Part shown: positions 14,303 through 15,925 of the stretch, in pieces | How positions within the stretch are numbered: position 1 is the stretch's first letter | How the letters are laid out: the number at the start of each line of letters is the position of its first letter | NCBI GenBank assembly: GCA_031268535.1 | Contig: JAIRXB010000033.1 | Coordinates: 1,886-65,885, forward strand | DNA: 64,000 nt | From: Puniceicoccales bacterium | Lineage (GTDB): Bacteria; Verrucomicrobiota; Verrucomicrobiia; Opitutales; JAIRLM01 | Direction: 5' to 3' | Made by a program: the position numbers and the translations under genes | Notes under the pieces: model-generated | What the model saw: only the letters and a program-made list of their open reading frames with translations | What the model was told of the DNA's origin: nothing | Databases searched by the model: none

Positions 14303-15925
14303 CTACGCCATTTGCGACTGACCACTTGAGCCTGAACGCCTTTTCACCAGCTTGTCGAGCTTAGCAAAAGCGGTGGAAGCCATCGCAAGACCGCCGGTAA
14401 ATCTCACCTGGGGTCCAACGCCTACATCACTCCCCCACCTGCTGCCGTTAAACTCACCCCAGTGTCCATCTTTGCACAGGCCGCGAACAAATTCGGCCTT
14501 CTCACATAGCCCGCCAGGTGTTCTGTCGCTTAGCGCTAAAGTTCCAAGCGCATCGGCGAGGGCAGCAACGACATCCGCGATTAAATCAATGCATAAAACT
14601 CCTTTCGCCGTACTCGAAAGGCTTTGCCCATCAACATAATCCTGCAGCTCAAATCCACCGCCACCATCACCATAGACATGTTTGCTGAACGCCTCAGCGC
14701 CAATCTTTGAGAGTCCATCCCTAGCAAGTCGCACAATAAGATCTTTGCATTCGGTATCGCCACCGCCGGATCCGACTGCAGCCGCCATGAAAATCGCAGC
14801 AAATGGATCAAGCTTTCCGAGAGAAAGCTTGTTTTTACTTGAAAACGCCATTTCAAGCGCCGCAATAACGGCCGCAAACTGCTTGTCGCGTTCGGAGCCA
14901 AAAACAGTCGCAGCACGCCCTTGCAGCGAAGAAGTGCTCAAAACAACTGGAAACAGGGTTTTCCCAATCTCTCCGACTACTTCTTCCAAAAATGATCTTG
15001 CCAAAGGATCGCTTCCCTTTCCACTAGCCTGAGCCGAATCCAATGCGGAATCCATCTCTCCGAGGGCCAATGCCGCAGTGCGAATCCCAACTCTAACCCT
15101 GGCTTCCTCGGAAACCAACTCAAAAAGATAACAGAGAAGCGCCTCATCATCTTTGGTGAGTGTTTCATTTGGATCGCGAAAGCCAATTCCGTAGTGCGAA
15201 TTCAAAAACAACCCAAACAAATCACTGAGAGCATGACAACGAGGTTGGCCGACCCCATTATTAAGCGGCACCGAGAAATACTGCAGCCCCATTCCGTTAG
15301 CATCGTAACCCAAAGCGCCATACGCACGACCGGCATGGCACTCATAGGCACTCCCAGGTATAGCGTCTCGTTCCACTTCCTCTGCAAGTGGGCCATGCCT
15401 CCCCATGGCGATTTCCACAAGCGCTTCGTAGATTTCTCCTTTCCGCTGAGGATGATCGCCTCTCCGCTTAACAAAAAATTTATCGGCTAGCTCATCAATG
15501 AGCTGGGAGCTGGAGGTGCTGGCGGCAATAGCGCTGTCAGCCGCCTCCCCCTCGAGCGCAGATTGACGAGACGGATTGTTAATCTCGCCGATAAGCCGCG
15601 CTATCGGCGAAAGGCTCTGCTGGCCGGCTGCGATAAAATATATGGCGAAAGCGGCCCACATGAGGCCAAACGTTACAATGGTGCCAATGATTAACAGGAA
15701 GGTTACTTGCTGACTCAGCCCTTTGTTGACGGCCTTAGCAAATTCGCTGGCGGGATGGTTGGCGCACCATTGAAGAATGTTTTCACGACTAGCAACGTAG
15801 CCGACAAAAAAAAACGCGGTTACGGCTTGAGGTACGTTCATGCTAATTTGTGCAGCACGGGGCTCGGAACGAGTCGCAACTAAACCCTGGCTATCGCGAG
15901 TTTCATAATTCATCATGGATGCCAT
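14303..15925 (-). CDS. Hypothetical 540-aa protein, intact copy of paralog family A; N-terminal ~28-residue hydrophobic stretch
   Basis: A long uninterrupted ORF. It is a clear paralog of 19119-20764: ADKFFVKRRGD, NGMGLQY, TKDDEALL, DPFAAIFMAAAVGSGGG, CIDLIADVVAAL. The hydrophobic segment is VTFLLIIGTIVTFGLMWAAFAIYFIAAG. I recognise no known domain. Confidence 0.6.
   Translation of the reverse strand: MASMMNYETRDSQGLVATRSEPRAAQISMNVPQAVTAFFFVGYVASRENILQWCANHPASEFAKAVNKGLSQQVTFLLIIGTIVTFGLMWAAFAIYFIAAGQQSLSPIARLIGEINNPSRQSALEGEAADSAIAASTSSSQLIDELADKFFVKRRGDHPQRKGEIYEALVEIAMGRHGPLAEEVERDAIPGSAYECHAGRAYGALGYDANGMGLQYFSVPLNNGVGQPRCHALSDLFGLFLNSHYGIGFRDPNETLTKDDEALLCYLFELVSEEARVRVGIRTAALALGEMDSALDSAQASGKGSDPLARSFLEEVVGEIGKTLFPVVLSTSSLQGRAATVFGSERDKQFAAVIAALEMAFSSKNKLSLGKLDPFAAIFMAAAVGSGGGDTECKDLIVRLARDGLSKIGAEAFSKHVYGDGGGGFELQDYVDGQSLSSTAKGVLCIDLIADVVAALADALGTLALSDRTPGGLCEKAEFVRGLCKDGHWGEFNGSRWGSDVGVGPQVRFTGGLAMASTAFAKLDKLVKRRSGSSGQSQMA

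What the first reader, a model, noticed from the sequence alone, without database searches (positions are those of the whole stretch)
14303..15925. Novel ~540-aa paralog family (family A) with an N-terminal hydrophobic hairpin-length segment; candidate membrane-targeted effector
Seen: two paralogs (14303-15925 and 19119-20764) share many blocks: ADKFFVKRRGD, GMGLQY, FRD..(E/K)T(L/F)TKDDE(A/E)LL, DPF(A/V)A(I/A)FMAAAVGSGGG, CIDL(I/V)ADVVAAL, GSRW(G/A)S. Their N-terminal 70 residues and the linker after the hydrophobic segment are very different. Copy 2 has a 2x ~11-codon tandem (VVAESVKLQEQE/VVADSAKF..) near 20330-20395. Each has one 28-30-residue uncharged stretch (VTFLLIIGTIVTFGLMWAAFAIYFIAAG; LACLIAAVSIATLGLACVAAVIYFALAM). 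I recognise no catalytic motif. Inference: lineage-specific amplification, fast-evolving termini and co-occurrence with a T3SS suggest a host-interaction function.
Basis: partly seen in the sequence, partly recalled or inferred. Interest (0 to 1): 0.65.

Follow-up and report, generated by a model that had tools for sequence, protein, structure and literature searches.

The report
Orphan membrane-anchored candidate effector pair
Two neighbouring copies (one broken) of a gene found nowhere else carry a membrane-anchor module shared by about 25 large orphan proteins of this small symbiont-type genome, which has a type III injection machine, so they are plausible but unproven host-directed membrane proteins.

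Summary
The two paralogs are real (BLASTP 2e-79 and 7e-35). All listed sequence blocks, both hydrophobic stretches and the 36-nt tandem repeat are present. Copy 2 is not one ORF: its frame breaks at a GGGG run (19479-19482).

The pair arose by a ~4.3-kb head-to-tail duplication that also copied pieces of rsmE and of a lipoprotein gene.

The ~400-aa all-helical body has no detectable relative in Pfam, NCBIfam, PHROGs, PADLOC, PDB, 5.8 billion clustered proteins, a full HMMER scan of 1.84 billion representatives, or 40 related genomes.

The N-terminal ~110 residues are not orphan. They match a module (short helix, linker, 24-28-residue hydrophobic segment with an invariant central Gly). This module heads about 26 large orphan proteins here (5.6% of the 1.05-Mb genome) and about 26 in a sister species. 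It was found in no other genus.

Some module proteins carry a J-domain or an OTU-deubiquitinase-like domain, which points to a eukaryotic cytosol. An injectisome is present; no T4SS or T6SS marker was found.

Best reading (0.45): a species-specific, fast-evolving member of a genus-specific family of injected, membrane-anchored effectors. The main rival is an anchor in the bacterium's own inner membrane. The function of the body is unknown.

The parts
14303..15925 (-). Family A copy 1: intact 540-codon ORF. Public gene call starts at M29 (512 aa).
15575..15838 (-). Copy 1 residues ~30-117: N-terminal anchor module (helix QAVTAFFF, linker, hydrophobic segment, juxtamembrane SPIARL).
   Evidence: A profile built without family A hits residues 32-112 at E 5.9e-6. 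A profile built only from the sister species hits residues 39-117 at E 1e-4.
15623..15706 (-). Copy 1 hydrophobic segment, residues 74-101 (VTFLLIIGTIVTFGLMWAAFAIYFIAAG), with central Gly87.
   Evidence: The AF2 model shows one helix at 72-102, at low confidence.
14306..15535 (-). Copy 1 body, residues 131-540: predicted all-helical, with no detectable relative outside the paralog.
19481..20764 (-). Family A copy 2, N piece: 428 in-frame codons. The ORF then runs on out of frame to a stop at 19373.
19479..19482 (-). GGGG run where the homology of copy 2 changes reading frame.
   Evidence: The out-of-frame tail of copy 2 matches an out-of-frame ORF of copy 1.
19119..19481 (-). Family A copy 2, C piece: 120 codons plus stop in the other frame.
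20480..20563 (-). Copy 2 hydrophobic segment, residues 68-95 (LACLIAAVSIATLGLACVAAVIYFALAM), with central Gly81.
20318..20387 (-). 36-nt (12-codon) tandem repeat, 1.9 copies, in the linker of copy 2.
13003..17265 (.). Duplication unit 1: rsmE 3' part, repeat-rich spacer, copy 1, lipoprotein-like gene.
17266..21150 (.). Duplication unit 2 (decayed): rsmE fragments at 17266-17419 and 17960-18003, spacer, copy 2, and the lipoprotein-gene tail at 21010-21150.
16052..17257 (+). 401-aa lipoprotein-like orphan, divergent from copy 1. Its ortholog in the sister species is 74% identical.
20774..20801 (-). Promoter-like site (GTGACT-16-TACAAT) 10 nt upstream of the copy 2 ATG. A related sequence lies upstream of copy 1.
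   Evidence: The count of such sites is not above chance.
58167..59537 (-). SctN-type T3SS ATPase gene (context).
56890..57630 (-). HpaP/SctP-like T3SS gene (context).

Best explanation
Family A is a species-specific, tandemly duplicated member of a genus-specific class of modular proteins. Each protein in the class joins a conserved N-terminal module to a large, fast-evolving and usually orphan C-terminal domain. The module consists of a Ser/Thr/Pro/Gln-rich leader, a short helix, and a 24-28-residue hydrophobic segment with an invariant central Gly and a juxtamembrane motif.

Inferred mechanism: the proteins are exported by the genome's injectisome (T3SS) into a eukaryotic host cell. The hydrophobic segment then anchors them in a host-side membrane, with the C-terminal domain facing the host cytosol. 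The ~400-residue helical body of family A would act there, on an unknown target.

Shown:
- paralogy and the duplication that produced it;
- orphan status of the body;
- membership of the module family;
- restriction of the module to one genus and its expansion there;
- presence of an injectisome, and no VirB4 (T4SS) or TssC (T6SS) marker;
- J-domain and OTU-like cargo on other module proteins;
- that copy 2 was kept open until recently and is now frame-broken, or mis-assembled at a 4-G run.

Inferred:
- secretion and its route;
- the membrane of destination;
- topology (one span versus a short hairpin);
- any activity of the body.
For: Paralogy: E 2e-79 and 7e-35.

Orphan body: nothing in Pfam, NCBIfam, PHROGs or PADLOC, in PDB sequences, in 5.8 billion clustered proteins, or in the full HMMER profile scan of 1.84 billion representatives. 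Nothing in 40 related genomes.

Module membership:
- A profile that never contained family A hits copy 1 at E 5.9e-6 and copy 2 at 0.017; the best reversed-sequence decoy scores 0.24.
- An independent profile built only from 22 sister-species proteins hits copy 1 at 1e-4 and copy 2 at 0.009; best decoy 0.14.
- A register view shows the invariant central Gly and flanking pattern.

Distribution of the module:
- 26 matches in the own genome and 26 in sister species G001.
- 1-4 matches in three less complete genomes of the same genus.
- 0 in nine genomes of the four other genera of the family.
- 0 in 27 order-level genomes apart from one marginal hit, and 0 in 400 phylum-level genomes.
- Module-bearing ORFs occupy 5.6% of the genome.

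Cargo pointing to a eukaryotic cytosol:
- A C-terminal DnaJ domain, E 5e-12.
- OTU-like Cys/His motifs. In the Foldseek search of the model, about 40 of the top 50 PDB hits are OTU deubiquitinases.

Secretion systems: T3SS secretin above cut-off, SctN and HpaP-like genes, SctV; no VirB4 or TssC.

Leader composition: S/T/P/Q make up 28% of the first 25 residues against 21% in other proteins (p 4e-5); K/R 9% against 13% (p 0.002).

Selection: random substitution at half the observed divergence leaves 410 codons free of stops in only 0.7% of trials. Identities cluster in blocks (p 0.019).

Context: a reduced 1.05-Mb genome of the Opitutales/Puniceicoccales type.
Against: - No secretion, expression or localisation data exist, and no public run holds the sequence.
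- The hydrophobic segment is strongly hydrophobic: a crude Hessa sum of about -1.8 to -2.0 kcal/mol for family A and down to -3.7 for other members. In Krampen et al. [quoted passage not shown] No chaperone-like gene lies next to either copy.
- Most known T3SS membrane effectors have two TM regions (review PMC9993115). This segment has one short hydrophobic stretch.
- Other genera of the family have the same T3SS but no detectable module.
- Pairwise omega of about 1 over the body is also what relaxed constraint would give.
- Copy 2 matches the module profiles only marginally.
- The OTU assignment rests on a mediocre model (pLDDT 51) and on weak E-values (0.04 or higher).
- A J-domain is equally compatible with an anchor facing the bacterial cytoplasm, as in DjlA.
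Confidence: 0.45

Rival explanations
1. Family A and the other module proteins are proteins of the bacterium's own inner membrane. The module is a signal-anchor inserted by SRP/Sec/YidC. The large C-terminal domains stay on the bacterial side, either cytoplasmic (as in the J-protein DjlA) or periplasmic, and serve envelope or regulatory functions of a reduced symbiont.
For: The segment is as hydrophobic as ordinary bacterial TM helices (thresholds in PMC6110835). There is a single hydrophobic stretch flanked by Arg/Lys on the C-terminal side. A C-terminal J-domain on an N-terminally anchored protein is the DjlA layout (the DjlA layout is from my own knowledge). No adjacent chaperone gene is present.
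Against: OTU-type deubiquitinase-like cargo has no substrate in a bacterium. It is hard to see why a 1-Mb genome would spend 5.6% of its DNA on ~26 genus-specific, fast-evolving orphan inner-membrane proteins with Pro/Gln-rich tethers. The leaders are depleted in Lys/Arg and enriched in Ser/Thr/Pro/Gln.
Confidence: 0.3
2. Both copies are decaying or functionless DNA: a recent duplicate pair drifting neutrally, with copy 2 already broken and copy 1 a still-open relic.
For: Omega is 0.9-1.4 over the body. Copy 2 is frameshifted. Unit 2 of the duplication has visibly decayed. There are no homologs anywhere.
Against: Copy 1 has 540 open codons, and copy 2 has 428 + 120 open codons despite ~27% nucleotide divergence. 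The chance of no stop arising is 0.7% or less if half the changes fell at random on one copy. Indels between the copies are in multiples of three. Identities cluster in conserved blocks (p 0.019). The N-terminal module is retained.
Confidence: 0.1
3. The proteins reach the host by a route other than the T3SS, for example a two-step path through an inner-membrane intermediate, release on membrane vesicles, or exposure after bacterial lysis.
For: A two-step route through an inner-membrane intermediate is reported for hydrophobic Legionella T4BSS effectors (PMC11602083, abstract). The high hydrophobicity of the segment fits an inner-membrane intermediate.
Against: No T4SS or T6SS marker is present in the genome. 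No such route is known for T3SS (my own knowledge).
Confidence: 0.15

Closest known systems
Chlamydial Inc proteins (T3SS-delivered inclusion-membrane proteins)
   Same: Large lineage-specific repertoire in an organism with a reduced genome and a T3SS, within the PVC group. A hydrophobic segment lies 40-110 residues from the N-terminus. The cytosol-facing domains are variable and mostly orphan.
   Different: Incs are recognised by two helices of 15-32 residues joined by 3-22 residues (PMC9993115). Here there is one stretch of 24-28 residues around a single Gly. Incs share a structural motif rather than a sequence profile; here the module is recognisable by sequence. The phylum is different, and there is no sequence similarity.
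Other T3SS transmembrane effectors and translocators (Tir, SseF/SseG, SteD, EspZ; AopB/PopB class)
   Same: Exported proteins that carry membrane segments. The most hydrophobic hairpin of AopB has arms of only 12 residues (PMC9993115), similar to the 11-14-residue arms around the central Gly here.
   Different: Those proteins have dedicated chaperones, usually encoded next to them, and mostly intermediate hydrophobicity (PMC6110835). No chaperone gene is adjacent here, and hydrophobicity is higher by a crude estimate. There is no sequence similarity.
Effector sets with a shared N-terminal delivery domain and variable C-terminal domains (Salmonella SPI-2 effectors with the WEK(I/M)xxFF N-terminal region; MIX/RIX-type T6SS effectors). 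From my own knowledge, not tested.
   Same: One conserved N-terminal module heads many unrelated C-terminal domains within one lineage.
   Different: Those N-terminal domains are soluble. This module contains a membrane segment. The secretion systems and sequences differ.
DjlA-type inner-membrane J-proteins, and HopI1 (a Pseudomonas syringae T3SS effector with a C-terminal J-domain). From my own knowledge.
   Same: One module protein (C4:39124-40731) has the layout N-terminal anchor, Gly-rich tether, C-terminal J-domain.
   Different: Family A itself has no J-domain. This comparison bears only on the compartment that the module serves.
Bacterial OTU deubiquitinase effectors (e.g. the Wolbachia wMel OTU, PDB 6w9o; Legionella Ceg23, PDB 6ks5)
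   Same: The OTU-like cargo of some module proteins gives these as its best fold matches.
   Different: The family A body has no Cys/His OTU motifs and gives no consistent fold match. The OTU-like domains here carry an insert of about 280 residues and escape Pfam.

Membership tests
Genus-specific N-terminal anchor module (undescribed; defined here by alignment A2 and by the G001-only profile) | Significant match to a profile that does not contain the query | tested here: met
   Copy 1: E 5.9e-6 and 1e-4; best decoys 0.24 and 0.14. Copy 2 is only marginal: 0.017 and 0.009.
Genus-specific N-terminal anchor module (undescribed; defined here by alignment A2 and by the G001-only profile) | Hydrophobic segment 45-115 residues from the start, with the central [TS]-x-G motif and 11-14 hydrophobic residues on each side | tested here: met
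   Copy 1 has T85-F-G87 and copy 2 has T79-L-G81, in register with ~40 members.
Genus-specific N-terminal anchor module (undescribed; defined here by alignment A2 and by the G001-only profile) | 'IGGxVxF(R/G)xS' motif before the segment | tested here: not met
   Absent from both copies. Family A belongs to a sub-class that instead shares W..Y and a juxtamembrane N/S-P-I-(A/G)-x-L motif.
Chlamydial Inc proteins | Bilobed hydrophobic domain: two helices of 15-32 residues joined by 3-22 residues (PMC9993115) | tested here: not met
   The uncharged stretch is 28 residues, with arms of 13-14 residues around one Gly.
Chlamydial Inc proteins | T3SS-dependent secretion and insertion into the vacuole membrane | not testable with these tools
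   No expression or localisation data; no sequencing runs found.
T3SS transmembrane effectors (generic) | Injectisome encoded in the genome | tested here: met
   SctC above cut-off, SctN and HpaP-like, SctV.
T3SS transmembrane effectors (generic) | N-terminal secretion-signal-like composition | tested here: inconclusive
   The module proteins as a group are enriched in S/T/P/Q and depleted in K/R in residues 2-25. However, start codons are uncertain (M1 versus M29/M23) and no trained predictor was available.
T3SS transmembrane effectors (generic) | Intermediate TM hydrophobicity, or a cognate chaperone that prevents inner-membrane targeting (PMC6110835) | tested here: inconclusive
   The crude Hessa sum is -1.8 to -2.0 kcal/mol over a 19-residue window; this is not the same calculation as in the paper. 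No small acidic ORF lies next to either copy.
Any curated protein family (Pfam, NCBIfam, PHROGs, PADLOC) or solved structure | Profile or sequence match to the body | tested here: not met
   The fold search of the low-confidence model gives scattered hits.
OTU deubiquitinases | Catalytic Cys at a helix N-terminus and His on a C-terminal strand; OTU fold | tested here: not met
   Not met for family A. Met at motif and fold level, but weakly, for other module proteins.

The most novel reading that the evidence does not exclude
One genus of genome-reduced, termite-gut-type Verrucomicrobiota has evolved its own counterpart of the chlamydial Inc arsenal. More than 20 T3SS-delivered proteins per genome share one sequence-conserved anchor: a short hydrophobic segment with an invariant central Gly, possibly a half-membrane helical hairpin rather than a bilobed domain. 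This anchor places interchangeable, fast-evolving domains (OTU-like, J-domain, and orphans such as family A) on a host membrane. Family A would be a species-specific member caught in a birth-and-death cycle of tandem duplication, rapid divergence and recent loss of one copy.
Probability: 0.35. Interest if true: 0.75.

Novelty: new variant of a known kind. Interest (0 to 1): 0.5.

Why it matters
If the module is a delivery-and-anchoring device, it gives a sequence-based handle on a whole effector repertoire, about 5-6% of the genome, in an uncultured verrucomicrobial symbiont lineage. It would also be a second, independent origin of membrane-inserted T3SS effectors within the PVC group. Finally, its short central-Gly segment is a tractable model for how a very hydrophobic segment escapes the bacterial inner membrane. 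Family A itself offers a natural pair for studying the birth, rapid divergence and loss of such genes. If the rival is right, the finding is a lineage-specific inner-membrane protein family of unknown role, which is of modest interest.

Tried and rejected
- **Remote homology of the body.** All of the following were empty: Pfam, NCBIfam, PHROGs, PADLOC; a PDB profile search at E up to 10; the search for homologous proteins; the full HMMER scan of 1.84 billion representatives; the genome contigs pattern scan; and 40 relatives.
- **Structure of copy 1.** AF2 with a 3-row alignment gave pLDDT 40. Foldseek on that model returned scattered helical hits with E of 0.7 or higher, which I rejected as meaningless.
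- **Positional ortholog in the sister species.** A 589-aa protein lies beside the conserved lipoprotein gene in G001. BLASTP gave E 0.076 and hhalign gave probability 4%. This is not accepted as homology and remains only a possibility.
- **Reads to test the frameshift.** No public run holds the sequence. The exact-protein look-up found no contig.
- **Promoter and terminator scan.** Site counts are not above chance.
- **The 509-aa Cys-rich neighbour (7274-8803).** It has a similar layout but was not retrieved by either module profile. I do not count it as a member.
- **Prophage, defence or mobile-element origin.** There are no PHROGs or PADLOC hits and no clear compositional break.
- **Flagellar explanation of the T3SS genes.** Rejected, because a T3SS-type secretin scores above the curated cut-off and only one FHIPEP gene is present.
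- **Literature.** I found no description of this module or of such a genome.

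Full report
**1. What is in the sequence**

Copy 1 is an intact 540-codon ORF at 14303-15925 on the minus strand. Copy 2 is homologous along its whole length but lies in two frames. ORF 19373-20764 (463 aa) aligns to copy 1 residues 29-414 at 43% identity (E 2e-79). ORF 19119-19439 (106 aa) aligns to residues 427-530 at 57% identity (E 7e-35).

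Reading the DNA and aligning the pieces (A1) places the frame change at a GGGG run at 19479-19482. Upstream of it, 428 codons are in frame; downstream, 120 codons plus a stop are in the other frame. The out-of-frame tail of the 463-aa ORF even matches an out-of-frame ORF inside copy 1 (E 1e-4), as expected for homologous DNA read in the wrong frame.

The tandem repeat is 36 nt x 1.9 copies at 20318-20387.

**2. How the pair arose**

Direct-repeat and blastn maps show a head-to-tail duplication of about 4.3 kb. Unit 1 spans 13003-17265: rsmE 3' part, repeat-rich spacer, copy 1, then a 401-aa lipoprotein-like gene. Unit 2 spans 17266-21150 and has decayed. It keeps rsmE fragments, the spacer, copy 2, and only the last ~140 nt of the lipoprotein gene.

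Divergence along the unit is uneven:

| Segment | JC distance |
|---|---|
| Unit ends (rsmE fragment, intergenic, lipoprotein tail) | 0.11-0.19 |
| 3' flank of the gene | 0.29 |
| CDS body | 0.31-0.36 |
| First ~130 codons | not alignable as DNA |

Nei-Gojobori estimates give dS 0.30-0.38 and omega 0.9-1.4 over residues 140-540. At the 5' end, dS is saturated. One duplication date cannot produce this pattern, so later gene conversion of the ends or a recombinational swap is needed. I could not resolve which.

**3. Is it a live gene?**

Omega of about 1, together with a broken copy, suggests decay. Three results argue that both copies were under selection for most of their history:

- Random substitution at half the observed divergence leaves 410 codons without a stop in only 0.7% of trials. 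Yet copy 2 has 428 + 120 open codons.
- Indels between the copies are in multiples of three.
- Identities cluster in blocks more than under permutation (p 0.019).

The frameshift is therefore recent, or it is an assembly error. No reads could be found to decide between these.

**4. The body is an orphan**

The following searches found nothing beyond the window's own pieces:

- Pfam, NCBIfam, PHROGs and PADLOC.
- A PDB profile search at E up to 10.
- The word-indexed search of 5.8 billion clusters.
- The exhaustive HMMER profile search of 1.84 billion representatives.
- The own genome, which holds only these two copies.
- 40 related genomes, including four of the same genus.

AF2 gives an all-helical model of low confidence (pLDDT 40). 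Its Foldseek hits are scattered.

In the sister species G001, a 589-aa protein lies next to the conserved lipoprotein ortholog (74% identity). It is a possible positional counterpart, but the similarity is not significant (BLASTP E 0.076; hhalign probability 4%).

**5. The N-terminus is not an orphan**

Weak N-terminal hits inside the genome led me to a census. Many large ORFs have the same layout:

- a polar leader;
- a short helix (pattern x-A-V-x-E-F-L-x-A);
- a linker;
- a 24-28-residue hydrophobic segment with an invariant central Gly, preceded by Thr or Ser two residues earlier.

An iterated profile that never included family A hits copy 1 residues 32-112 at E 5.9e-6 and copy 2 at 0.017; the best reversed-sequence decoy scores 0.24. 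A profile built only from 22 proteins of G001, and so independent of this genome, hits copy 1 at 1e-4 and copy 2 at 0.009; the best decoy scores 0.14.

A register view places family A in a sub-class. This sub-class also shares Trp three residues after the Gly, a Tyr near the end of the segment, and a juxtamembrane N/S-P-I-(A/G)-x-L motif. It lacks the IGGxVxF motif of the majority.

**6. Distribution of the module**

Alignment A2 of the module was searched against related genomes:

| Genome set | Matches |
|---|---|
| Own genome | 26 |
| G001 (same genus) | 26 |
| Three less complete genomes of the same genus | 1-4 each |
| Nine genomes of the four other genera of the family | 0 |
| 27 order-level genomes | 0, apart from one marginal hit |
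| 400 genomes sampled across the phylum | 0 (only the 10 best candidates per genome were scored) |

Module-bearing ORFs range from 223 to 3248 aa and total about 59 kb, or 5.6% of the genome. Pfam sees almost nothing in 19 of them.

**7. Clues to the compartment**

One module protein ends in a DnaJ domain (E 5e-12).

Several others carry conserved Cys and His motifs: two tandem genes in G001, and C23:2313-6755 in the own genome. Module-less or truncated relatives C22:3741-5201 and C11:3819-5246 carry the same motifs. An AF2 model of this domain (pLDDT 51 overall, core 60-83) gives OTU deubiquitinases as about 40 of its top 50 PDB matches. The best is a Wolbachia OTU (probability 1.00, E 0.04).

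These E-values are weak and Pfam is silent, so I treat the OTU assignment as probable, not proven. Ubiquitin-directed cargo would place the C-terminal domains in a eukaryotic cytosol.

**8. Organism and secretion systems**

The genome is 1.05 Mb in 33 contigs and about 93% complete. PNPase places it among Opitutales/Puniceicoccales. The best named relatives, at 59-60% identity, include termite-gut metagenome bins.

It has an SctN-type ATPase and an HpaP-like gene in the window, one SctV/FlhA gene, and a T3SS secretin above NCBIfam's cut-off. No VirB4 and no TssC were found.

The same secretin is present in all five genera of the family. The injectisome is therefore older than the module.

**9. 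Mechanism**

The best-supported reading is that module proteins, family A included, are injectisome substrates that end up anchored in a host-side membrane with the C-terminal domain in the host cytosol.

In support, residues 2-25 of the module proteins are enriched in Ser/Thr/Pro/Gln and depleted in Lys/Arg relative to other proteins of the genome. This comparison depends on uncertain start codons.

Against it:

- The segment is very hydrophobic by a crude Hessa sum (-1.8 to -2.0 kcal/mol for family A). Krampen et al. (PMC6110835) showed that T3SS membrane substrates mostly sit just below the SRP threshold or need a chaperone that covers the segment. No chaperone-like gene flanks either copy.
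- Most T3SS membrane effectors have two TM regions. Incs are recognised by two helices of 15-32 residues joined by 3-22 residues (PMC9993115). This segment fails that test.
[quoted passage not shown] Whether the segment is one span or a short hairpin remains open.

The main rival is a signal-anchor in the bacterium's own inner membrane (a DjlA-like layout).

**10. Verdict**

The effector interpretation is plausible, strengthened and unproven.

- Family A is a peripheral, species-specific member of a genus-restricted, sequence-conserved anchor-module family.
- The cargo of that family includes eukaryote-directed domains.

Earlier notes from other windows of this genome reached a similar picture of the module family. 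I derived it independently, before reading them.

Noticed in passing
Own genome C22:3741-5201(-), C11:3819-5246(+), C23:2313-6755(-); sister species L105:10410-12026 and L105:12086-13621: An OTU-deubiquitinase-like family that Pfam does not see. It has the motifs VDCGxGxxxxxCLxAS ... HxxxH[YF]xA and an insert of ~280 residues. The AF2 model has pLDDT 51 overall, with a core of 60-83. About 40 of the top 50 Foldseek PDB hits are OTU domains; the best is the Wolbachia wMel OTU 6w9o, E 0.04. The 1480-aa protein has two copies of the domain, with Ser at the Cys position.
   Followed up: partly
window 13003-21150: Divergence along the duplicated unit is uneven. The unit ends have JC distance 0.11-0.19, the 3' flank of the gene 0.29, and the CDS body 0.31-0.36. 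The 5' 130 codons cannot be aligned as DNA. A single duplication date cannot explain this; later gene conversion of the ends, or a recombinational swap of the middle, is needed.
   Followed up: partly
window 21119-22729(-) and 20832-21006: A 536-aa orphan ORF. A 175-nt internal piece of it (21362-21536) is copied at 91% identity just upstream of copy 2, inside the duplication junction.
   Followed up: no
window 16052-17257(+): A 401-aa lipoprotein-like protein (LAAGC lipobox-like) with no Pfam or NCBIfam match. It is 74% identical to its ortholog in the sister species, so it is conserved while its neighbours turn over.
   Followed up: partly
window 33106-38259(+): Three consecutive ORFs of 555-566 aa with no Pfam match. 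Earlier notes call one kinase-like and two diverged paralogs.
   Followed up: no
Own genome C6:20999-37555(-) and C16:30258-46607(-): Two paralogous giant ORFs of 5518 and 5449 aa in a 1.05-Mb genome.
   Followed up: no
Own genome C4:39124-40731(-): A module protein with a Gly-rich tether and a C-terminal DnaJ domain (Pfam E 5e-12). Its neighbour C4:37473-38423 is a shorter paralog without the J-domain.
   Followed up: partly
window 13590-14300 and 17420-19100: The non-coding spacers downstream of both copies are filled with a degenerate repeat sharing a ...CGATCGGCTAATG core: 6 copies of a 31-nt family and 3-4 copies of longer ones.
   Followed up: no
Relatives G005-G013 (four other genera of the family): All have a T3SS secretin above cut-off and genomes of 0.8-1.4 Mb, but no detectable module. 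Their effector repertoires, if any, must be built differently.
   Followed up: no
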